DNA from: Bacteroidota bacterium
Lineage (GTDB): Bacteria; Bacteroidota; Bacteroidia; Bacteroidales; WCHB1-69
Length of the DNA: 64,000 bases
Reading direction: 5' to 3'
Assembly (NCBI GenBank): GCA_009786185.1
Contig: WQTS01000139.1
Location: forward strand, 6,802-70,801
Shown: piece by piece, positions 1,008 to 51,072 of the stretch
How positions within the stretch are numbered: the stretch's first letter is position 1
Layout: each line of letters begins with the position of its first letter
Notes under the pieces: generated by a model
Told to the model about the DNA's origin: nothing
Databases searched by the model: none
What the model saw: only the letters and a program-made list of their open reading frames with translations
Made by a program: the position numbers and the translations under genes

Positions 1008-2012
1008 ATGAATTCTTTCGGCACATCATTCATCCTCAGCGATTACGGCGGCACCCACGATCCCCACATCGGCGGCACAATTACCGGCTGCCCTGCCGAC
1101 ATTGAAATTGATTTTGAATTTATACAGAGCGAACTAGCTCGCCGTGCACCTTCTCAACATCCAAATTCCACTCAACGCCGCGAACCGGATCACGTAGAGT
1201 TTTTATCCGGCATAGAAAACGGAAAAACCACAGGCGCTCCTATCGAATTTCGCATTCAAAACGAAGATGTGCAACCCAATAAAGCGATGTTGCACGTCAT
1301 AAAACCCTCACACGCTTCTTATACCTACAAGATAAAATACGGAATTACAGACAATTCAGGTACCGGAAGAGCCTCCGCGCGACAAACCGCGTGCAGAGTC
1401 GTGGGCGGCGCCATCGCCAAATTGTATTTAAAAAAATTTGGGATTGAAATTCATGCTTGGGAAAAGGGAAAAGGAAGAAGGGAGAAGGGAGAAAAATTCC
1501 TTCTCCTCTCTGAGGAGAAGGTGGCAGACGGCGACTTGTCGGCGTCTGACGGAAGAGGTGATGACGGCGATACCTTCGGCGCCTTAGTACATTGCACCAT
1601 CAAAAACCTCCCCGCCGGCTTAGGCGAGCCTGTGTACGATAAATTCGATGCACGTTTGGCATACGCCATGCTTTCCATTAATGCCTGCAAAGGTTTTGAA
1701 ATAGGCAAAGGTTTTGAAGCCGCCAATATGAAAGGCTCTGAATATAACGACATTCAAAATCCGGATTTTTCTTTTCAAAGTAATAACGATGGCGGTGTGC
1801 AAGCCGGAATTACTAATGGACAAGAAGTTTATTTTTCTGTGGCATTCAAACCTGTACCAACGTTGCAGATGAAGCAAAGTACAATTGATTTTGACGGAAA
1901 ATCCACCACTTATATTGGAAATAATCGTAATGATCGATGTGTGGCGCCAAGAGTTTTACCGGTGGTAGAAGCTATGGCAGCGTTAGTGGTGGCGGATTTT
2001 ATGTTGTCTTGA
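1008..2012 (+). CDS. aroC: Chorismate synthase (divergent, carries a repeat-derived internal segment)
   Basis: Motifs TGRASARQTACRVVGGAIA, LPAGLGEPVYDKFDARLAYAMLSINACKGFEIG and RNDRCVAPRVLPVVEAM match chorismate synthase signatures. The N-terminal GESHG-type motif is degenerate (GGTHDPH). Confidence 0.8.
   Translation: MNSFGTSFILSDYGGTHDPHIGGTITGCPADIEIDFEFIQSELARRAPSQHPNSTQRREPDHVEFLSGIENGKTTGAPIEFRIQNEDVQPNKAMLHVIKPSHASYTYKIKYGITDNSGTGRASARQTACRVVGGAIAKLYLKKFGIEIHAWEKGKGRREKGEKFLLLSEEKVADGDLSASDGRGDDGDTFGALVHCTIKNLPAGLGEPVYDKFDARLAYAMLSINACKGFEIGKGFEAANMKGSEYNDIQNPDFSFQSNNDGGVQAGITNGQEVYFSVAFKPVPTLQMKQSTIDFDGKSTTYIGNNRNDRCVAPRVLPVVEAMAALVVADFMLS
1459..1566. repeat. GA-rich tract plus 74-nt double-hairpin module, in frame inside aroC
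   Basis: nt 1491-1564 matches 48295-48368 at about 69/74 positions by eye. It contains the hairpins ccttctcc/ggagaagg and cagacg..cgtctg and is translated as EKFLLLSEEKVADGDLSASDGRGDD. Confidence 0.85.
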
Positions 2013-4582: not shown

Positions 4583-4589
4583 CAAAAAA

Positions 4590-4640
4590 CCCCTTCAGAA
4601 TTTGAAGGGGTAGACGACAAAGCCGGACGGAATAGTTTAA
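4590..4640 (-). terminator. Hairpin ccccttcagaatttgaagggg followed by a T-run on the minus strand; also a copy of the CCCCTTCAAAATTTGAAGGGG repeat family
   Basis: 8-bp GC-rich stem at 4590-4597/4603-4610. The minus strand reads hairpin then TTTTTTG, directly downstream of the minus-strand gene ending at 4637. The tail gacggaatagttta matches the family consensus gacggggtagttta. Confidence 0.6.
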
Positions 4641-23866: not shown

Positions 23867-26554
23867 CTAGTTTTTTAAGCTTTTCAACAACAACTCCCCT
23901 GTCCCAATCCGATAGCCCTCTGATTTGAATACAAGTTTTCCTTCTTTATTCACAATAAACACCAACGGATATTCTTCTCTAAATTCCTGATTGGTGGTAT
24001 TTAATACATAATTCATAAACATTGATTCCTTATCAATTTCGAAAATAGAGTTTACAGGTAAATTCCAACGTTTCGGGTTGAAATCGGCGGTATTTTTTTC
24101 GCCGGGAATCATAAATAAAATATTGCCTCCCCATTTATCAAAATCATTTTTTAATGCTGCCATATCGTTGAATAAGTGACGAGTAGGTTCGCGCGCGGGA
24201 TCAATAAAGCAAAGTATCAATTCTTTTTCCTGCATTAAGTCAATGAGCGCTAATGTGTGTTCCTTGCCGGAATACGGTGAGTTCACCTCAATTTCACCGT
24301 AAGTTTTATTTTGAGGAATTAGTTTGCGTAACGTAACGGTTTTGCTCACTGTTTTTCCGGGTTCAATATTGAAAAACTCTAATTGTGAAAGTGTTTCGCC
24401 GTCGCTATAACGATTTCCGGTAGAAAGCATGTAATAACCGGGTTCCAATTCTAATGTGGCAGGGAAAGCTGCTACCCGTGGATCATCTTGGTAATTAAAG
24501 GTTACAAAATCGCCGTCTGCGAATTTTGCGATGGTGTAGTGGGTCCAGTATTCGGGGGTTTTGGCGTTTTTGGGGAGGGTTAGGGTTAAATTTCCATATA
24601 AACTACCCCGTGACACCCCTTCAAAATTTGAAGGGGATTTAGTGCCTGCTACTTTCTCCTTTCTCCCTTCTTCCTCTAAATCCACCACATTCCATTTTTT
24701 ATTTTGCCATACGAATATTTGATTAGTAGCAGCGTCTAAATATGCCGGAATATCTAAGGCTCGGCAGGCTGCCACGAAGAAGATGTTTCGCGAATGTTCG
24801 TCTGTGAGTCTTAAATCGTAAACACCTTTGGGTGAGATGGAGGCACGAAAATAATTGTCGTCGGAGCGCAAACGAATATTTGCATCCATCCAATCCAGAA
24901 GTTGTTGAGAAGTTGCATTCTCTCCTAATTCTGCTTCCAAGTTATCGAGTAAATAATGACGCCACATGCGCAATCCTTCATTAGAAATCCGTGCAGGAAT
25001 TATTCCTTTTACATAAACATCGAAAGGATATTTTTTTGAATCAAATAAAGTAGTATGTTCCTGCAAAATATCAGCAGGTGCATCGCGCAGGTCTTTGTCG
25101 GAAAGTGCGTTTAAAAATTCATACACATATAATCCGGCTCTTTTTTTGCCGTTTTGTTCCACAAACTTTTTAATTTCCGCATAATTTCCTTCGCTTTTTT
25201 GAATGAAATACCATACTTGTTCCGGCGTAAGATTTTCTGTTTTAATGATTTTTGCGTCCTCTTCATTCATAAAAGTAGTCAGATAGGCATTACGCACAGA
25301 ATCATTATATTGTAAACGTCTATTATTGATGTCGTTTTGTTCTTTCGTTGCCACTTTCTTTTTGGTTCCGGCATCGGGCGGGAAAATGTCCAACCACTCC
25401 ACGTATTCTTTACCCTGCTCATTTTCAAGCCTTATGGTTAATTCATCATTTTTACGCACATCGAACTTTTGGTAGCCGTATTTTCTGTTTTTTGTTACCC
25501 ACACGAGCAAATCGCCATAACCGGTACTAAGAGTAGCAACACCGTCTTTATCAGTATTAGTGGAAGCAAGGGAATAATATTCAGCAAAATTATAGAGTTT
25601 GAATTTTACGATGGCATCTTGCACGGGCATATTATTTTTATCTACCACAATGACCTTTATCTTTTTAGTATTCGTATAATTAGAAGTTAGATTTACCACA
25701 GAATATAATTCGGTTTCCAAAGTACGTTCTCCAAAATCTCCGCTTTTCCCAAACACGTTGGTGTGCACCATCATAGCGCGAGTAACGGGAAGGGCAAACC
25801 AACCCATATCTAATTCAGGATCAGGCTCACAAGCACCCAGAAAGTGCCAATTGCCGTTCACCCAAACTTCTACCCAAGCGTGATTGCTATTGGTGTGCGC
25901 CCAACGCGGTGTGTAAATCTGACGTGCCGGAATCCCCATGGCGCGCATGGCAGTAACCGTTAAGGTAGATTCTTCGCCACAACGCCCAAAGCCGGTACGA
26001 ATGGTAGCCAACGGCGACGAAGTTCTCCTATCCGAAGGACGATACGTTACTTTTTCGTGACACCAGTGGTTAATTTCCAATGCAGCATCGTACATGCTCA
26101 TGTCTCTAATTCTGTCTTTTAACTCATTGAAAATCACCATCCGTGCCGTATCCAAATCTTCATTATTTACACGATATACCAGCACAAAATGGCGAAATAT
26201 ATCTTCGGGAATAGCTGCGCCCCAAGGCATTTCATCTTGTGCTTTGAATGCGTAACGTACTTGATCCAAAAAGAATTTGCCGTCATAATCAGCTAAATCG
26301 CTCAACGGCATATACGCATACAAAAATTGCAATGCTTCTTTCTCTTTGTGTGTCAGAGTTTTGTCATTAAAAACAAAAAACAACTCCGTAGTGCGATCTC
26401 CCGCCAGCACTTTTCGTGCCTCAAAATCGGCTTGCACCATTAAGCGATAAGATTTGTCGGTTAGAAAATGAGGATCTTTACCACAAGAAGAAAAAAGAAA
26501 AACGGCGATTGTTATAAAAAGCAACCGGCTCAATATTAGATTGTTTTGCTTCAT
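23867..26554 (-). CDS. Transglutaminase-like domain lipoprotein with thioredoxin-like C-terminal region; carries an in-frame repeat copy
   Basis: Lipobox (FSSC). Transglutaminase core GFGRCGEESTLTVTAMRAMGIPARQIYTPRW...NHAWVEVWVNGNWHFLGACEP (Cys/His/Asp). Confidence 0.75.
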   Translation of the reverse strand: MKQNNLILSRLLFITIAVFLFSSCGKDPHFLTDKSYRLMVQADFEARKVLAGDRTTELFFVFNDKTLTHKEKEALQFLYAYMPLSDLADYDGKFFLDQVRYAFKAQDEMPWGAAIPEDIFRHFVLVYRVNNEDLDTARMVIFNELKDRIRDMSMYDAALEINHWCHEKVTYRPSDRRTSSPLATIRTGFGRCGEESTLTVTAMRAMGIPARQIYTPRWAHTNSNHAWVEVWVNGNWHFLGACEPDPELDMGWFALPVTRAMMVHTNVFGKSGDFGERTLETELYSVVNLTSNYTNTKKIKVIVVDKNNMPVQDAIVKFKLYNFAEYYSLASTNTDKDGVATLSTGYGDLLVWVTKNRKYGYQKFDVRKNDELTIRLENEQGKEYVEWLDIFPPDAGTKKKVATKEQNDINNRRLQYNDSVRNAYLTTFMNEEDAKIIKTENLTPEQVWYFIQKSEGNYAEIKKFVEQNGKKRAGLYVYEFLNALSDKDLRDAPADILQEHTTLFDSKKYPFDVYVKGIIPARISNEGLRMWRHYLLDNLEAELGENATSQQLLDWMDANIRLRSDDNYFRASISPKGVYDLRLTDEHSRNIFFVAACRALDIPAYLDAATNQIFVWQNKKWNVVDLEEEGRKEKVAGTKSPSNFEGVSRGSLYGNLTLTLPKNAKTPEYWTHYTIAKFADGDFVTFNYQDDPRVAAFPATLELEPGYYMLSTGNRYSDGETLSQLEFFNIEPGKTVSKTVTLRKLIPQNKTYGEIEVNSPYSGKEHTLALIDLMQEKELILCFIDPAREPTRHLFNDMAALKNDFDKWGGNILFMIPGEKNTADFNPKRWNLPVNSIFEIDKESMFMNYVLNTTNQEFREEYPLVFIVNKEGKLVFKSEGYRIGTGELLLKSLKN
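24596..24677 (-). repeat. Composite repeat (GA-rich tract, CCCCTTCAAAATTTGAAGGGG hairpin, GGGGTAGTTTATAT) translated inside the transglutaminase-like CDS
   Basis: Its reverse complement aligns with 39536-39640: shared aatccccttcaaattttgaaggggtg ... ggggtagtttatat. Read in frame as ...EEEGRKEKVAGTKSPSNFEGVSRGSLYG... Confidence 0.85.
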
Positions 26555-28040: not shown

Positions 28041-28155
28041 TTAAATATAAACTACCTAGTCCAGCTTTGCCGTTCATCCTTTCAAAATTTGAAGAGGATT
28101 TTTTCGTCATTCCGAGTAAAGCAAGGAATCTCCTCCTTTCTCCCTTCTCCTTTCT
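28041..28155 (-). repeat. Degenerate copy of the composite GA-rich / CTTCAAAATTTGAAG / TAGTTTATAT element
   Basis: The reverse complement reads agaaaggagaagggagaaaggagga ... aatcctcttcaaattttgaaaggat gaacggcaaagctggac taggtagtttatattt. Compare 4590-4640 and 39536-39640. Confidence 0.75.
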
Positions 28156-29156: not shown

Positions 29157-29246
29157 AGTATGTTTTTTTATTGTTTTAAAAAATGTTTGGCAAAAATAAT
29201 TTTTTTAGTGATACGCGGCAAGTGACAGGTAAGCGTATTATTTTTT

Positions 29247-38880: not shown

Positions 38881-38937
38881 AGATTGCTAAAAGGCAAATA
38901 TTAAGCAGATATGAGAAATTTTAATGCGTTTTTTCTA

Positions 38938-38979
38938 CTTTTTTATACAAATGTTGTCATTAATGTTATTTTTGGCAAC
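38938..38979 (+). promoter_or_regulatory. Conserved promoter-proximal block containing a TAttTTTG -7 box (copy 1, upstream of grpE)
   Basis: cttttttatacaaatgttgtcattaatgttatttttggcaac matches 46767-46809 at about 37 of 42 positions by eye. Confidence 0.55.
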
Positions 38980-39042: not shown

Positions 39043-39537
39043 ATGTTTATGAGTAAAAAAAAGAACAACAAAGAGATCGAGCTTAATGAGCAAGTTGAAA
39101 TTCTAAATGCAGAAAAAGCAGAATTAAATGATCGCTTTTTGCGCCTTTATTCAGAATTTGAAAATTATAAAAAACGAACCAACAAGGAAAAATTAGACCT
39201 TATAGCCACCGCTTCAGAAAGAGTTATCTTAGGACTGCTCCCTATTGTGGATGATTACGAAAGAGCCATTAAACACAACCAAAACACAGAAGATATTGCC
39301 ACTTTAAAAGAAGGATTTACGCTTATTTACAGCAAATTATTAACATTATTAAAACGTTTTGAAGTAGAAGAAATCATCGCTTTAGGCGAAATCTTTGATA
39401 CCGATTTGCACGAAGCAGTTACGCATCTTCCCGCACAATGCGAAGAAGATAAAGGAAAAATAATGGACGTTACCGAAAAAGGATACAAGCTGAAAGACAA
39501 GGTGATACGGTTCTCGAAAGTGGTAGTGGCAAATTAG
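39043..39537 (+). CDS. grpE: Nucleotide exchange factor GrpE
   Basis: RLYSEFENYKKRTNKE ... GLLPIVDDYERA ... pattern, directly upstream of dnaJ. Confidence 0.9.
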   Translation: MFMSKKKNNKEIELNEQVEILNAEKAELNDRFLRLYSEFENYKKRTNKEKLDLIATASERVILGLLPIVDDYERAIKHNQNTEDIATLKEGFTLIYSKLLTLLKRFEVEEIIALGEIFDTDLHEAVTHLPAQCEEDKGKIMDVTEKGYKLKDKVIRFSKVVVAN

Positions 39538-39640
39538 GAGAAAGGGAGAAGGGAGAAAATGGGAGAAAGAAGGGAAACGGAAGAATAATCCCCTTCAAAT
39601 TTTGAAGGGGTGGCTCGCGAAGCGAGACGGGGTAGTTTAT
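39536..39640 (+). repeat. Composite repeat (GA-rich tract, CCCCTTCAAATTTTGAAGGGG hairpin, ctcgcgaagcgag hairpin, GGGGTAGTTTATAT) filling the grpE-dnaJ spacer
   Basis: Best-preserved copy of the family also seen at 4590-4640, 24596-24677 and 28041-28155. It ends 16 nt before the dnaJ ATG. Confidence 0.85.
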
Positions 39641-46759: not shown

Positions 46760-46766
46760 AAATTTT

Positions 46767-46809
46767 CACTTTTTTATACAAGTATTGCCATTAATGCTAT
46801 TTTTGCAAC
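46767..46809 (+). promoter_or_regulatory. Conserved promoter-proximal block with TAttTTTG -7 box (copy 2, upstream of dnaX)
   Basis: cacttttttatacaagtattgccattaatgctatttttgcaac; see 38938-38979. Confidence 0.55.
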
Positions 46810-46868: not shown

Positions 46869-48002
46869 ATGGATAATTTCATTGTTTCCGCCCGTAAATA
46901 CCGCCCATCCACATTTAACACAGTGGTAGGGCAAGATTCTATCGTTTCTACTCTCAAAAACGCAATCAAAACACAACAAGTAGCACAAGCATTTCTGTTT
47001 TGCGGTCCGCGGGGAGTGGGCAAAACCACCTGCGCCCGTATATTTGCAAAAGCACTTAACTGCCACCATCTTACTCCGGATTTTGAACCTTGCAACGAGT
47101 GTGAATCCTGCAAATCGTTCAACGCATCGGCATCTTTCAATGTGTATGAATTGGATGCCGCTTCCAATAATTCCGTAGAAGATATTCGTTCGTTAGTAGA
47201 ACAGGTGCGTATCAGTCCGCAGGGAGCCAAATTTAAAGTGTATATCATTGATGAGGTTCACATGCTTTCTAATCAAGCATTTAATGCTTTTTTAAAAACG
47301 CTGGAAGAACCTCCTGCGTATGCTAAATTTATCTTGGCAACTACGGAAAAACATAAAATTATTCCCACTATTTTATCACGTTGTCAAGTATATGATTTTA
47401 AGCGCATTGGAGATAACGACATTATGAAGCATTTGGCTTACGTAGCAAGCAATGAAGCCGTGCAAGCCGAAGAAGAAGCATTGCGCGTGGTAGCCTCAAA
47501 AGCCGACGGCGCGCTAAGGGATGCACTCTCCATTTTCGACCAGTTGGTAAGCTTCTCCGGAAAAAATATTACCTACCAAACCACCATTCAACATCTGAAT
47601 GTGTTAGATGTAGATAACTATTTTAAAATGACCGACTTTTTATTTAGCGAAGATAGCTCCGATGCACTTTTACTTTTTGATGAAATTTTAAACCGCGGTT
47701 TCGACGGACAACACTTTATTTCCGGATTGGCCGCACATTTTCGCCAGTTGTTAATGGCGCAAAACCCTGCTACCATCAAATTAATGGAGGTCTCCGATAC
47801 CGTAAAACAACGTTTTTTCGAACAAGCCAAAAAAGCCGATAAACAGTTGTTACTCCGTGGATTAGAATTAGCCAACCAGTGCGATTTTAATTACAAACTA
47901 TCTCAAAACAAACGTCTTAGCGTAGAAATCTGTTTGATGCAAATCAATGGAAATTACGTATATAAGCTAAACGCAGGCGTCAGGCAATCACGGGAGAAAT
48001 AG
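46869..48002 (+). CDS. dnaX: DNA polymerase III subunit gamma/tau, N-terminal (domains I-III, gamma-like) ORF
   Basis: AAA+ clamp-loader motifs FLFCGPRGVGKTT, Zn module CHHLTPDFEPCNECESC, YIIDEVHML, SRC motif (ILSRCQVYDF). Confidence 0.9.
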   Translation: MDNFIVSARKYRPSTFNTVVGQDSIVSTLKNAIKTQQVAQAFLFCGPRGVGKTTCARIFAKALNCHHLTPDFEPCNECESCKSFNASASFNVYELDAASNNSVEDIRSLVEQVRISPQGAKFKVYIIDEVHMLSNQAFNAFLKTLEEPPAYAKFILATTEKHKIIPTILSRCQVYDFKRIGDNDIMKHLAYVASNEAVQAEEEALRVVASKADGALRDALSIFDQLVSFSGKNITYQTTIQHLNVLDVDNYFKMTDFLFSEDSSDALLLFDEILNRGFDGQHFISGLAAHFRQLLMAQNPATIKLMEVSDTVKQRFFEQAKKADKQLLLRGLELANQCDFNYKLSQNKRLSVEICLMQINGNYVYKLNAGVRQSREK

Positions 48003-48033
48003 TGTAGAGCCCTCGCCCACCGGAGTAGGCAAT

Positions 48034-48825
48034 TTGGTGCCCTCCACCAGCCCACAGCAATCCACACGCGGATTCGTGGCGCCATCCTCCATGCCCGTAA
48101 AGAAAACACCGGATATTACCGATATTATCGGAGAGAAAGAGGTGAGCGGTAAGAGGTATAAGGTGAGCGGTGAAGAAGTAGAAAGCGAACCGATTGTAGG
48201 GGCGCAAAATCTTGCGCCCAGTGCCAAAGAAAAAGAAGGAGAGAGAAAAGATGAGAGAGAAAAGGAGAAAGAGGAAGCAAGAAGAGAAACGGAAGAAAAA
48301 TTCCTTCTCCTTTCTGAGGAGAAGGTGGCAGACGACGGCTTGCCGGCGGCTGACGGAAGAGGTGATGAAGAACAAAGTGATAAATCAACTGAAACACAAC
48401 CTCAATCGAAAGAAGAACCATTACATACCACGAACCTCGCACCGCATACCGCAACCCACACACCGCAACCCGCACCCGATTTCCCCACCCACTGGCGCAC
48501 CATGTTCAACCACGTCTTCGCATCCGTGCCCACCATCTATTTCTCATTAAAAGAAACATTACCCGAAATAGAAAACAACATCATCAAAGTCGTCGTCAAA
48601 AATGATATTCAAAAAGAACATTTTGAAGCTAAAATAAGAGACGTTTTAGAATTTTTACGCACGAATTTCAATGAACAAGTAGAAGAGATAATTGTAGAGG
48701 CTAACGAACAATTGGAAACCAAGAAAATTATTTACGATGTAAAAGACAAATTGCAAAATTTCAAAGAGCAAAACTCTGAATTTGACGATTTTATACAAAT
48801 ATTAGAACTAAAAATAAAAGACTAA
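48034..48825 (+). CDS. DnaX C-terminal (tau-specific-like) region as a separate ORF in the +1 frame
   Basis: The C-terminal roughly 110 aa (WRTMFNHVF..IYFSLKETLPEIENNIIKVVVKNDIQKEHFEAKIRDVLEFLRTNF...) resemble the conserved C-terminus of full-length Bacteroidota DnaX. The N-terminal two-thirds is repeat-derived low complexity. This frame is open from 47971. Confidence 0.6.
   Translation: MVPSTSPQQSTRGFVAPSSMPVKKTPDITDIIGEKEVSGKRYKVSGEEVESEPIVGAQNLAPSAKEKEGERKDEREKEKEEARRETEEKFLLLSEEKVADDGLPAADGRGDEEQSDKSTETQPQSKEEPLHTTNLAPHTATHTPQPAPDFPTHWRTMFNHVFASVPTIYFSLKETLPEIENNIIKVVVKNDIQKEHFEAKIRDVLEFLRTNFNEQVEEIIVEANEQLETKKIIYDVKDKLQNFKEQNSEFDDFIQILELKIKD
48128..48480. repeat. Nested composite repeat block in the dnaX linker
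   Basis: Outer GGTGAGCGGT/GGTATGCGGT-word arms (48135-48178 and 48421-48478) enclose the hairpin ggggcgcaaaatcttgcgccc, a GA-rich tract (48225-48295) and the 74-nt double-hairpin module (48295-48368). Confidence 0.8.
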
Positions 48826-51072
48826 ATGGAGATTTATTTACCTAATCCGATTTTAGAAAGGAAGACCATTTTAAGGAAATACAGAGAGTTGTGCCGTTTG
48901 CTTCCGCCGCATGCCACCAAGCAACAACGCAAACTGTTCCACAAAGCGTTTGCCTTAGCAGTTGATGCACACAAAGATATGCGCCGAAAAGGAGGAGAGC
49001 CTTACATTTATCATCCCATCGCCGTAACACAAATTGTGGCAAAGGAAATCAATTTGGGGGTTACTTCCATGATTGCTGCACTGCTTCATGATGTGGTGGA
49101 AGATACTGATTATAAGTTGAAAGACGTAGAAGCCATGTTCGGAGAAACCGTAGCTAAACTCGTAGACGGATTGACCAAAATTGAGGATATTGTCGTGGAT
49201 GTGGATCAATCAGTGCAAGCGGAAAATTTTAAGAAGATTTTGCTTTCTACTGTAGAAGATGTACGCGTTATTTTGATTAAGTTGGCAGACAGATTACATA
49301 ACATGCGAACATTGAGTGCATTACCACAAGAAAAACAATGGAAAATTTCTTCCGAAACTTCGTTCTTTTTTGTGCCCATTGCCCATCGTCTGGGACTTTA
49401 TTCCATTAAAAGTGAGCTGGAAGATTTGTCGATGAAATATAACGATCCGACAGAGTATAACAAGATTCAATACGCCCTTGAATCAACGGCTGAAGAAAGA
49501 AATACTTTGATTGAGGATTTTACCAAGCCTATTATTGAGAAGCTAAAAGAAGCGGGCATTGATGCCAATGTTACCAGCAGAACCAAATCTGTTTATTCCA
49601 TTCATCAAAAAATGATTCGGCAAAAAATCAATTTTGAAGATATTTACGACATTTTTGCGGTGCGCTTTGTATTTGATTCACCTCCTGAAGAAGAAAAAAA
49701 TATTTGTTGGCGCATTCATACTGTAGTTACAGAACTTTACAAAACCAATCAATCGCGGGAAAGGAATTTTCTTACGAATCCCAAACCAAACGGGTATCAA
49801 TCATTGCATATTACTGCCATGAGTAAAACCGGAAAATGGGTGGAAGTACAAATTCGCTCGCAACGTATGGATGAAATTGCGGAAAAAGGACTTGCGGCAC
49901 ACTTCAAATACAAAGAAGAAAATAAAAGCCCGCAAGAATACGAAAACCGTGTGGAAGAGTGGCTTACAAAAATTCGAAGCATGTTAAAAAGTGAAGACAC
50001 CACCGCTTTGGAATTTTTAAACGAAGTAAAGTTGAATCTCAATCTGAAAGAAGTGATCGTATTTACGCCCACAGGAGAAAGAAAAGTATTGCCTGCCGGG
50101 GCAACCGTGCTCGATTTTGCTTACGATCTGCACACCAATCTCGGGAACCATTGCATTGGCGCAAAAGTAAATTATAACATTGTGCCCATTGACTATGTGC
50201 TTCGCAATGGCGACCAGCTTCAAATTATTACATCAAAAAAACAAATCCCTAAACCGGAATGGATTACTTATGTAAAAACGGTGCATGCCCGTGAAAAAAT
50301 TAAGGAAGCTTTTCGCGAAGAGCATAAAAAGAAAGAGGTGAAAGGAAAAAAAATATTAGCCGAAATTTTTGCTTCATTAAACATTGAAAATAATGCTTCT
50401 AATATAGGGCGCGTGCAAGCCGATGCCAGAATTTTATCGCCTTACGAATTTTGGAATTGCATCGCAGAAGGAACCATTACCAAAGATCGTATCCGCAAAA
50501 TTTTTAGAAAAAAATCTTCCAATACAAGCGCCATTGACGATTTCAGAAAGAAAATCACCAATCATTTGCAAGACAAAAAGATTGACACACTTATAGAAGA
50601 ACAGTTGGAGAAAAAACCGGAAGTTTTTTTGTTAGATGAAACCTCCGATGTGATTCGTTACGTGCTTGCCGAATGCTGCAGCCCCATTCCGGGCGACCAA
50701 GTGATGGGCTTTCAAATTACAAACGATACGATAGAAGTGCACCAAACCAAATGTCCGCATGCAATTGAGCAAATGTCAAAATTTGGAAACCGTATCATTA
50801 AAGCAAAGTGGCGCGAGGGATTAAACTTGGCATTCTTATCCGGTATCCGGGTTTCCGGCTTCGATAGAAAAGGAATGCTCAAAGAGATTATCGATGTTGT
50901 ATATTCTCAAATGGATTTGAACATCAGATCGTTCGACTTTTGGTCGAAGAGTAATACTTTTACGGGAAAATTAATGCTGTATATTCAAAACGTGAAGGCA
51001 TTGAATGAGTTAATTGAAAATTTATCCAAAATAGATCAAGTAGAAAAAGTAGAGCGCATTGCGCCTGAATAA
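48826..51072 (+). CDS. spoT: Bifunctional (p)ppGpp synthetase/hydrolase, RelA/SpoT family
   Basis: HD hydrolase motif (LLHDVVEDT), synthetase domain (..[16 protein letters not shown]), TGS and ACT-like C-terminus. Confidence 0.9.

What the first reader, a model, noticed from the sequence alone, without database searches (positions are those of the whole stretch)
47968..48100. dnaX is split into a gamma-like ORF and a +1-frame tau-C-terminal ORF at the domain III / linker boundary
ORF 46869..48002 ends at TAG just after the clamp-loader domains. The conserved DnaX C-terminal region continues in the +1 frame, which is open from 47971. That leaves a 30-nt window (47971-47999) in which a +1 shift would fuse the two ORFs. 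E. coli makes gamma by -1 frameshifting at the equivalent position. The stop context here is acGGGAGaaaTAGt: a purine-rich GGGAG four nucleotides before AAA-TAG, superficially like the prfB +1 site architecture. Alternatives are a true split gene (gamma plus a separately initiated fragment, with ATG at 48091), a frameshift mutation caused by the adjacent repeat insertions, or a sequencing error.
Basis: partly seen in the sequence, partly recalled or inferred. Interest (0 to 1): 0.65.

Follow-up and report, generated by a model that had tools for sequence, protein, structure and literature searches.

The report
Conserved +1 frameshift site in dnaX
In this uncultured Bacteroidales bacterium and many relatives, the replication gene dnaX lies in two reading frames joined at a strictly conserved short motif (YY-AGG-CAA-KCR), so the full-length tau protein most likely needs a programmed +1 ribosomal frameshift, which I did not find described for this gene.

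Summary
dnaX ORF1 (46869-48002, 377 aa, clamp-loader domains I-III) stops at TAG. The tau C-terminal part continues in the +1 frame, open from 47971 to 48825.

It is not an error, a pseudogene or a by-product of the nearby repeats. All 120 closest protein clusters stop at the same place. All 16 lineages whose DNA I read have the C-terminal part in the +1 frame.

Ten lineages of the window's group share an invariant 15-mer, AGGCAATCACGGGAG (47982-47996), although only 2.7% of their third codon positions are invariant. Three more distant groups keep only YY-AGG-CAA-KCR.

Frame openness across lineages confines the shift to GUC-AGG-CAA-UCR. AGG is among the rarest codons in all groups. No conserved start codon, RNA structure, A-run or fixed stop accompanies the site.

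The best explanation is a programmed +1 ribosomal frameshift that makes tau (651 aa), while normal termination makes a gamma-like 377-aa protein. The exact shift codon is inferred, and nothing has been tested experimentally.

I rate it a new variant of a known kind: dnaX recoding is known only as -1 or poly-A types.

The parts
46869..48002 (+). dnaX zero-frame ORF (377 aa). It is a gamma-like product with clamp-loader domains I-III and ends at TAG 48000-48002.
   Evidence: Pfam DNA_pol3_delta2, DNAX_ATPase_lid and DNA_pol3_gamma3; NCBIfam PRK14971 positions 1-360 of 614; TIGR02397 over its full length.
47980..47990 (+). Core recoding motif TC-AGG-CAA-TCA (general form YY-AGG-CAA-KCR), shared by all four groups of +1-split dnaX. 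This is the inferred site of the +1 shift.
   Evidence: The motif occurs once in the 64-kb window on either strand.
47982..47996 (+). 15-nt block AGGCAATCACGGGAG, invariant in the 10 lineages of the window's group (group A). Its 3' half, ACGGGAG, is specific to this group.
   Evidence: the next longest invariant run in the 2-kb alignment is 6 nt, and 2.7% of third codon positions are invariant; all 120 protein hits carry RQSRE.
47971..47999 (+). Stretch of the window in which both the zero frame and the +1 frame are open.
47983..48825 (+). The +1-frame continuation (280 codons from GGC, plus the stop TAA at 48823-48825). It encodes the tau linker and C-terminal domain. A fused product would be 651 aa.
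48052..48126 (+). Conserved linker box PQQSTRGFVAPSSMPVKKTPDITDI in the +1 frame. In several relatives it lies upstream of any ATG, GTG or TTG.
48433..48816 (+). Tau C-terminal domain, corresponding to the region of Bacteroidales DnaX that carries Pfam DUF8439 (PF28557) in the precomputed annotations of relatives.
   Evidence: PRK14971 positions 486-613. (colinear alignment with unsplit DnaX). (PF28557 on ORF2 products and on the unsplit relatives; the tables do not give its position); the fold model is moderate and its matches are not significant.

Best explanation
dnaX in this organism is decoded in two ways. Ribosomes that stay in frame terminate at TAG 48000 and release a 377-aa gamma-like clamp-loader subunit (domains I-III). 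A fraction of ribosomes shift +1 within GUC-AGG-CAA-UCA (47979-47990) and continue to 48825. This gives a 651-aa tau that carries the linker and the C-terminal domain, which by homology tethers the polymerase to the clamp loader.

Shown: the two-frame layout, its conservation, the invariant nucleotide motif, the narrow stretch in which the shift must occur, and protein-level selection on the +1 frame directly after the motif.

Inferred: the shift is ribosomal, and it happens when the rare Arg codon AGG is slowly decoded in the A site. The abundant +1-frame codon GGC is then read instead. This resembles Ty1/Ty3 in yeast and CCC-AGG-C in E. coli. The preceding NYY codon (GUC, UCU, GCU or GCC) would sit in the P site, and the conserved CAA-KCR would act as 3' context. 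I put about 0.45 on this exact site. The main alternative is slippage of P-site tRNA-Arg(CCU) from AGG to GGC.

The role of the group-specific ACGGGAG is unexplained. The efficiency of the shift is unknown.
For: (1) Split conserved. All 120 best protein clusters (80-98% identity, many assemblies) are 375-381 aa, apart from P0065 at 425 aa, and all carry RQSRE followed by 1-5 residues at the C-terminus. P0065's extra length is at the N-terminus: in L090 the part from the homologous start is 377 aa and ends ...GAG-AAA-TAA like the others. No fused variant appears among the close hits.

(2) DNA of 10 group-A lineages with different flanking genes, plus 6 lineages of groups B-D (67-73% identity), always has the tau part in the +1 frame.

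(3) A 15-nt invariant block, against 2.7% invariant third positions and a longest other invariant run of 6 nt. The core YY-AGG-CAA-KCR is kept in all groups.

(4) Limits of the shift stretch. In L090 the +1 frame opens at the UCA of gUCAGGC. In groups B and C the zero-frame UGA follows AGG-CAA-KCG (UCG; GCG in L178) directly.

(5) AGG ranks among the 1st to 7th rarest codons in the window and in the flanks of all groups.

(6) After the motif, substitutions fall on +1-frame third positions: 130/112/213 at positions 1/2/3 over 366 codons. The conserved linker box precedes every possible start codon in L084, L092, L182 and L184.

(7) The +1 ORF aligns colinearly with the C-terminal domain of unsplit Bacteroidales DnaX.

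(8) No conserved RNA structure, no A-run, no Rfam hit.

(9) Precedent: a +1 shift at a rare AGG followed by C, on CCC-AGG-C, runs at 5% in E. coli (PMC7022156).
Against: There is no experimental evidence: no protein, ribosome-profiling or RNA data.

None of the candidate P-site codons re-pairs well in the +1 frame (GUC to UCA; AGG to GGC gives 2 of 3; CAA to AAU; UCA to CAC), so the classical slippage rule is not met.

In-frame AGG-CAA occurs in three other ORFs of the window. AGG-C alone therefore cannot be the whole signal, and I cannot say how the 3' nucleotides would act.

The strict invariance of ACGGGAG within group A is not explained by the model.

Bacteroidia ribosomes frameshift at only about 7% on prfB (PMC10798248), so how enough tau would be made is an open question.

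A single-gene NJ tree places groups A+D and B+C apart, with unsplit lineages between them. The evolutionary history is therefore unclear.
Confidence: 0.8

Rival explanations
1. True split gene. The gamma-like ORF and the C-terminal ORF are translated separately, either by internal initiation (for example TTG 48034 or ATG 48091) or by termination-reinitiation, and they act as two polypeptides.
For: Gene callers annotate a separate downstream ORF in every relative. The window has TTG, GTG and ATG codons 51-108 nt after the motif.
Against: No start codon is conserved in position. L084 has none for 165 nt, L182 none for 132 nt, and L184 and L178 none for 114 nt. In L084, L182 and L184 the whole conserved linker box lies upstream of these starts, and in L092 part of it does. 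Third-position bias of substitutions begins right after the motif. The +1 frame is open back through the motif in all 16 lineages. A 15-nt block invariant in both frames has no role in this model. A tau C-terminal domain that is not tethered to the clamp loader would lose the known function of tau (established knowledge of E. coli tau).
Confidence: 0.07
2. [quoted passage not shown] This is the first reader's model.
For: GGGAG(G) can pair with CCUCC of 16S rRNA (from general knowledge). In 7 of 10 group-A lineages the stop is exactly one codon after GGGAG. Groups B and C have UGA right after the core.
Against: The last sense codon varies: AAA, UGC, GGA, CGC, AGA. The stop lies 3, 6 or 15 nt after the motif. 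Spacing between GGGAG and the P-site codon would be 0 nt, against 3 nt in prfB. In groups B-D the zero-frame stop or unrelated sequence takes the place of GGGAG, so a common mechanism cannot use it as a 5' stimulator. Bacteroidia ribosomes sequester the anti-SD (PMC10798248).
Confidence: 0.06
3. Correction at the RNA level. Transcriptional slippage or editing removes one nucleotide or adds two, and standard translation of the altered mRNA gives tau.
For: Transcriptional slippage is the accepted route for poly-A dnaX genes (PMC3711429). Such poly-A genes are common in other Bacteroidota.
Against: There is no homopolymer longer than GGG in group A and none in groups B-D. No fused protein of about 650 aa appears among the 120 closest database clusters, which include assemblies of many public sequencing runs. 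Single-nucleotide RNA editing of this kind is not known in bacteria.
Confidence: 0.04
4. Artefact or decay: a sequencing or assembly error, or a pseudogene created by the nearby repeat insertions.
For: The window's linker carries inserted repeats. One relative, L083 (coverage 2.4x), has an extra frameshift in ORF2.
Against: The same frame change occurs at the same motif in at least 16 diverged lineages from ENA, JGI, NCBI and Logan assemblies. Both halves are under purifying selection. dnaX is an essential gene. The relatives lack the window's repeat insertions.
Confidence: 0.01

Closest known systems
Two-ORF dnaX in which tau needs recoding (Antonov et al. 2013, PMC3711429; also noted in Atkins et al. 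2016, PMC5009743)
   Same: The zero-frame ORF ends just after domain III and gives the short product. The long tau product needs a frame change at that point. The genes are not annotated as recoded.
   Different: The described cases are -1 at the DNA level and most have runs of 7-10 A, attributed to transcriptional slippage. Here the change is +1, at a heteropolymeric motif YY-AGG-CAA-KCR, with no A-run.
E. coli dnaX -1 programmed frameshift (A_AAA_AAG, upstream SD, downstream stem-loop)
   Same: Same gene and same position (domain III / linker), with the same outcome of two products that share their N-terminal part.
   Different: The direction is opposite, and the roles are reversed because the shift makes tau rather than gamma. 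There is no slippery heptamer, no conserved stem-loop and no upstream SD.
Rare-AGG-driven +1 shifts: yeast Ty1 CUU-AGG-C, Ty3 GCG-AGU-U with a 3' context, and E. coli rpoB suppressor site CCC-AGG-C (PMC7022156)
   Same: A zero-frame AGG that is one of the rarest codons, followed by C so that the +1 codon is GGC. No RNA structure is needed. As in Ty3, the conserved sequence extends 3' of the shift codon and the P-site tRNA cannot re-pair well.
   Different: The P-site codon is GUC, UCU, GCU or GCC rather than a slippery CUU or CCC. The 3' extension CAA-KCR is strictly conserved. The shift serves an essential chromosomal replication gene in bacteria. Whether AGG is really the pause codon is untested.
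prfB (RF2) +1 programmed frameshift CUU_UGA_C with an SD 3 nt upstream
   Same: A chromosomal bacterial +1 shift. In groups B and C a UGA stop follows the core directly.
   Different: There is no CUU and no upstream SD. The stop is not at a fixed distance in groups A and D. No autoregulatory logic involving release factor is evident.

Membership tests
DnaX (clamp-loader gamma/tau) of Bacteroidota, NCBIfam PRK14971 | N-terminal AAA+ module, lid and domain III | tested here: met
   PRK14971 positions 1-360 (680.6 bits); TIGR02397 positions 3-354 of 355.
DnaX (clamp-loader gamma/tau) of Bacteroidota, NCBIfam PRK14971 | C-terminal domain colinear with that of full-length family members | tested here: met
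   the +1 ORF matches positions 486-613 (E 3e-6); alignment with unsplit relatives. The fold search itself was inconclusive (best E 0.024; E. coli tau chain 5fku_E at rank 38).
E. coli-type dnaX -1 frameshift | Slippery heptamer A_AAA_AAG, or X_XXY_YYZ, at the junction | tested here: not met
   the junction is GTCAGGCAATCACGGGAG.
E. coli-type dnaX -1 frameshift | The shifted frame is -1 and yields the short gamma product | tested here: not met
   the continuation is in the +1 frame and yields the long product.
E. coli-type dnaX -1 frameshift | Downstream stem-loop stimulator | tested here: not met
   0 conserved pairs in 10 lineages; z-score -0.03.
Two-ORF poly-A dnaX (Antonov 2013) | Two adjacent ORFs, with tau requiring recoding | tested here: met
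Two-ORF poly-A dnaX (Antonov 2013) | Run of 7 or more A at the junction and -1 frame relation | tested here: not met
   Searches show no A-run; all 19 loci that carry the motif have the C-terminal part in +1.
prfB-type +1 frameshift | P-site codon whose tRNA re-pairs in +1 (CUU_U) with a stop codon in the A site | tested here: not met
   the codon before the stop varies. A stop is adjacent to the core only in groups B and C.
prfB-type +1 frameshift | SD-like sequence 3 nt 5' of the shift codon | tested here: not met
   Sequence 5' of AGG is variable. GGGAG lies 3' of the conserved core and is absent in groups B-D.
Rare-codon (AGG-C) +1 shift of Ty1 / Ty3 / E. coli CCC-AGG-C type | In-frame AGG followed by C, giving +1 codon GGC | tested here: met
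   invariant in all 16 lineages.
Rare-codon (AGG-C) +1 shift of Ty1 / Ty3 / E. coli CCC-AGG-C type | AGG is a rare, slowly decoded codon in the host | tested here: met
   Rarity is shown: 2.6 per 1000 and joint rarest in the window; rank 3-7 in the flanks of groups A-D. Slow decoding and the tRNA-Arg(CCU) level are not testable here.
Rare-codon (AGG-C) +1 shift of Ty1 / Ty3 / E. coli CCC-AGG-C type | P-site tRNA able to re-pair in +1 (Ty1, CCC-AGG-C), or a special near-cognate peptidyl-tRNA (Ty3) | tested here: inconclusive
   P-site codons are GUC, UCU, GCU and GCC. In +1 these become UCA, CUA, CUA and CCA, which re-pair at 1-2 of 3 positions at best. The tRNA gene sets of these genomes were not available.
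Rare-codon (AGG-C) +1 shift of Ty1 / Ty3 / E. coli CCC-AGG-C type | Shift efficiency falls when the AGG-decoding tRNA is raised | not testable with these tools
   Needs a reporter assay.

The most novel reading that the evidence does not exclude
This is a new class of bacterial +1 frameshift signal: a short linear motif (YY-AGG-CAA-KCR) that works without P-site re-pairing, without a stop codon, without SD pairing and without RNA structure. That would be a Ty3-like 'no-slip' mechanism in bacteria whose ribosomes ignore SD sequences, and it would be needed to make an essential replisome subunit. Together with the poly-A type and an apparent UAG-readthrough type seen in other Bacteroidota, it would show that gamma/tau dual expression has been reinvented at the same codon position by at least three more routes than in E. 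coli.
Probability: 0.4. Interest if true: 0.85.

Novelty: new variant of a known kind. Interest (0 to 1): 0.72.

Why it matters
dnaX is the textbook case of -1 programmed frameshifting, and chromosomal +1 frameshifts in bacteria are very few (prfB is the main one). A conserved +1 site in dnaX, used to make the essential tau subunit, would add a new recoding signal and a natural test case for how +1 shifts are triggered without a slippery P-site codon. It arises in Bacteroidia, whose ribosomes do not use Shine-Dalgarno pairing.

In practice, the second half of dnaX is called as a separate downstream ORF in all these genomes, and where its precomputed Pfam annotation has a hit it is DUF8439. The motif gives a simple rule for correcting the annotation.

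The gamma:tau ratio would depend on decoding of a rare Arg codon. This suggests a testable link between tRNA supply or growth state and replisome composition.

Tried and rejected
Only L098 was useful.

(2) I looked for unsplit relatives that keep a VRQS or SGN remnant, which would have revealed the junction of the shifted product. There were none.

(3) A third protein search, with a group-C query, gave no new tail variants.

(4) Backward hop of tRNA-Ser from UCA to the UCA 8 nt upstream (-8, equivalent to +1). It fits the GUC lineages but fails for the UCU, GCU and GCC lineages, so I rejected it.

(5) A quadruplet-decoding tRNA for AGGC. This is unlikely because in-frame AGG-C occurs 13 times, and AGG-CAA 3 further times, in other ORFs of the window.

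(6) A conserved downstream hairpin or pseudoknot. None was found.

(7) Rfam. No family matches at the site.

(8) Downstream SD-like tetramers (GGAG, GAGG, AGGU) occur 10-14 nt after AGG in most groups. They cannot act as 5' stimulators for a shift that must happen upstream of them, so I leave this unexplained.

(9) Possible pairing of CACGGG with 16S helix 18. I considered this from memory only. It is too short to be meaningful and could not be tested without the rRNA.

(10) The local Pfam copy lacks PF28557. It gives only a sub-threshold hit of the C-terminal domain to DNA_pol3_a_NII.

(11) An AlphaFold model of the C-terminal domain (pLDDT 76.7) gave no significant PDB match. The best hits were DnaA domain I and DciA, at E 0.02-0.06.

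(12) GTC is rare in the window but not in the relatives, so I dropped it as part of the argument.
Full report
OBSERVATION. ORF 46869..48002 (377 aa) ends at TAG 48000-48002. The +1 frame has a TAA at 47968-47970 and then stays open for 284 codons, to the TAA at 48823-48825. ORF1 carries the complete clamp-loader module: Pfam DNA_pol3_delta2, DNAX_ATPase_lid and gamma domain III, NCBIfam TIGR02397 over its full length, and PRK14971 positions 1-360 of 614. The +1 ORF matches PRK14971 positions 486-613. It also aligns colinearly with the C-terminal domain of unsplit Bacteroidales DnaX proteins. The two ORFs are therefore the two halves of one dnaX, joined at the domain III / linker boundary with a +1 frame change.

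NOT AN ERROR OR A PSEUDOGENE. A search of 5.8 billion proteins with ORF1 returned 120 best clusters at 80-98% identity, from JGI, ENA, NCBI and Logan assemblies. All but one are 375-381 aa long, and all 120 carry RQSRE followed by 1-5 residues at the C-terminus. The exception, P0065 (425 aa), is longer only at its N-terminus: in L090 the stretch from the homologous start is 377 aa and ends like the others.

I fetched DNA for nine further lineages of this group (group A: L001, L081, L084, L087, L090, L092, L094, L095, L097). Their ORF1 is 79-85% identical to the window's, and several have different neighbouring genes. All have the tau part in the +1 frame.

The repeat insertions in the window's linker (48264-48368 and others) are absent from these relatives, so they did not cause the frame change.

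A CONSERVED NUCLEOTIDE SIGNAL. In a 2-kb DNA alignment of the ten group-A lineages only 2.7% of 371 third-codon positions are invariant. The longest invariant run outside the junction is 6 nt. At the junction, 15 consecutive nucleotides, AGGCAATCACGGGAG (window 47982-47996), are identical in all ten. The sequence on either side is freely variable, including the last sense codon and the stop: AAA-TAG, TGC-TAA, GGA-TAA, GGG-CGC-TGA, and a stop 15 nt further on in L097.

A metagenome locus (L098) and a second protein search uncovered three more distant groups of short DnaX proteins.
- Group B: 18 clusters ending VRQS*.
- Group C: 4 clusters ending VRQS* or VRQA*.
- Group D: 7 clusters ending ARQSQ(V/E)RK*.

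Their DNA reads GTC-AGG-CAA-TCG-TGA (L098, L184, L182/L183), GTC-AGG-CAA-GCG-TGA (L178) and GCC-AGG-CAA-TCG-CAG-GTG-CGA-AAA-TAA (L181). In every case the tau part is again in the +1 frame. The part common to all 16 lineages is YY-AGG-CAA-KCR. This full motif occurs once in the 64-kb window, on either strand.

WHERE THE SHIFT MUST BE. In L090 the +1 frame is closed by TAG immediately before the UCA of gUCAGGC, and in L184 by TGA one codon earlier. In groups B and C the zero frame is closed by UGA directly after AGG-CAA-KCG. If one mechanism serves all groups, the frame change must happen while GUC, AGG, CAA or UCR is in the P site. That corresponds to window 47979-47990.

TRANSLATED THROUGH, NOT RE-STARTED. 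Potential start codons (ATG, GTG, TTG) in the +1 frame are not conserved in position. L084 has none for 165 nt after the motif, L182 none for 132 nt, and L178 and L184 none for 114 nt. A linker box conserved at the protein level lies wholly upstream of those starts in L084, L182 and L184 and partly upstream in L092. In group A it reads PQQSTRxFxxPxxxxxKKTPxIxDI (window 48052-48126); groups B and C have an analogous box. In seven pairwise comparisons of the 55 codons after the motif, differences fall 130/112/213 on +1-frame codon positions 1/2/3. This is the signature of a translated frame.

MECHANISM. No conserved RNA structure accompanies the site: RNAalifold finds 0 pairs in ten lineages, and the window fold has z = -0.03. 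There is no A-run and no Rfam match. The signal is therefore a short linear sequence.

AGG is joint rarest of all sense codons in 32 long ORFs of the window (2.6 per 1000). It ranks 3rd to 7th rarest in the flanking ORFs of all four groups. It is always followed by C, so the overlapping +1 codon is GGC, a common Gly codon.

This is the arrangement of Ty1 CUU-AGG-C, and of the CCC-AGG-C site that shifts +1 at 5% in E. coli when the ribosome waits for tRNA-Arg(CCU) (PMC7022156). My preferred reading is that the ribosome pauses with AGG in the A site and an NYY codon (GUC, UCU, GCU or GCC) in the P site, and that GGC is decoded instead.

The weak points of this reading are as follows.
- The P-site tRNAs cannot re-pair well in +1, so the shift would have to be Ty3-like.
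- In-frame AGG-CAA occurs in three other ORFs of the window, so the flanking YY and KCR must contribute in a way I cannot explain.
- The group-A-specific ACGGGAG is strictly conserved for no reason I can give.

Slippage of P-site tRNA-Arg(CCU) from AGG to GGC is the main alternative site. Both readings give a 651-aa tau, and they predict different junction peptides (see the next steps).

RIVALS. I considered four:
- separate initiation of the second ORF,
- a prfB-like shift at the stop,
- RNA-level correction,
- artefact or decay.

Each is contradicted by the comparative data above. Together I give them under 0.2.

COMPARISON WITH WHAT IS KNOWN. Four routes to gamma and tau are described:
- -1 ribosomal frameshifting in E. 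coli,
- transcriptional slippage on A9 in Thermus,
- proteolysis in Caulobacter,
- a two-ORF arrangement in which tau needs recoding, described in 2013 for 17 genes, all -1 at the DNA level and mostly with runs of 7-10 A (PMC3711429; PMC5009743).

Four full-text literature searches found no report of a +1 shift in dnaX, or of this motif. That library covers only open-access papers and preprints, so absence there is not proof.

The window's gene shares the two-ORF logic of the 2013 class but fails its defining features (A-run, -1). [quoted passage not shown] It meets two of the features of rare-AGG +1 sites. I therefore class it as a new variant of a known kind.

Work on Flavobacterium johnsoniae shows that Bacteroidia ribosomes sequester the anti-SD and shift on prfB at only about 7% (PMC10798248). 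A signal that does not depend on SD pairing fits these organisms. It leaves open how enough tau is produced.

DISTRIBUTION.
- 116 have a single dnaX ORF.
- 27 have an A-run with a short first ORF. The C-terminal part is in -1 in 24 and in +1 in 3.
- 19 carry the motif, always with the C-terminal part in +1.
- 3 have an in-frame TAG.

A rough NJ tree of the N-terminal 356 residues joins groups A with D and B with C, and puts unsplit lineages between the two pairs. The motif is therefore either old and repeatedly lost, or arose more than once. A single-protein tree cannot decide this.

LIMITS. Everything here is comparative sequence evidence. The ribosomal nature of the event, the exact codon, the efficiency and the role of the 3' nucleotides are inferences. 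The function of the C-terminal domain as the polymerase-binding part of tau rests on homology with DnaX of the same family. My structure model (pLDDT 76.7) gave only non-significant fold matches.

Noticed in passing
window 1460-1564 and 48264-48368 (related piece at 39531-39600): A repeat of about 105 nt (86% identical) lies inside two unrelated coding regions: ORF 1008..2012 (by my reading of its sequence a chorismate synthase; not checked with a tool) and the dnaX +1 ORF. It is read in the same frame in both and gives the same peptide, EKFLLLSEEKVAD..L.A.DGRGD. It contains an inverted repeat (CCTTCTCC...GGAGAAGG). It looks like a small mobile element that inserts in frame into genes, as Rickettsia palindromic elements do.
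   Followed up: partly
L016 around 2788; L033 and L042 around 5100: Three Bacteroidales dnaX genes have a single in-frame TAG at the same domain III / linker position, followed by the conserved ATTGC(A/T)AGG, with the tau part in the same frame. Other genes in these loci end in TAG, so the code is not changed. This may be a programmed UAG-readthrough type of dnaX.
   Followed up: partly
L011, L017, L024, L025, L030, L032, L037, L038, L047, L048, L052, L060, L069-L074, L076, L106, L115, L120, L140, L147, L152, L163, L165, L167: About a sixth of the sampled Bacteroidota dnaX genes have a run of 8-13 A and a short first ORF. The tau part is usually in the -1 frame but is in +1 in three loci. This is the poly-A two-ORF type of Antonov 2013, and it seems far more common in this phylum than the 17 genes reported then.
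   Followed up: partly
P0139 (607 aa) in the tree: An unsplit full-length DnaX sits inside the clade of +1-split groups B and C. It shows no remnant of the motif peptide. This points to loss or replacement of the frameshift site in that lineage.
   Followed up: no
L083 3663-4296: One relative, from an assembly at 2.4x coverage, has a further frame break inside the tau ORF. It is probably an assembly error. It shows that single low-coverage contigs cannot be trusted on frame.
   Followed up: no
window 46763-46805, 38932-38974 and 29165-29207: A 43-nt intergenic sequence just upstream of dnaX (TTTTCACTTTTTTATACAAGTATTGCCATTAATGCTATTTTTG) recurs upstream of other genes at 65-86% identity. It ends in TAnnTTTG, which resembles the Bacteroidetes -7 promoter element as I recall it.
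   Followed up: no
window 48823-48828: The stop of the dnaX +1 ORF (TAA 48823-48825) abuts the ATG of the next ORF, 48826..51072. By my reading of its sequence that ORF is a RelA/SpoT-type (p)ppGpp synthetase/hydrolase; I did not check this with a tool. dnaX and this gene are probably co-transcribed.
   Followed up: no
window 4588-4614, 24614-24640, 28075-28101, 39588-39614: There are four copies of a palindrome, CCCCTTCAAAATTTGAAGGGG, often next to GGGAGAA-rich repeats (families D2, D6, D8). They may be terminators or part of the same repeat family that invaded the dnaX linker.
   Followed up: no
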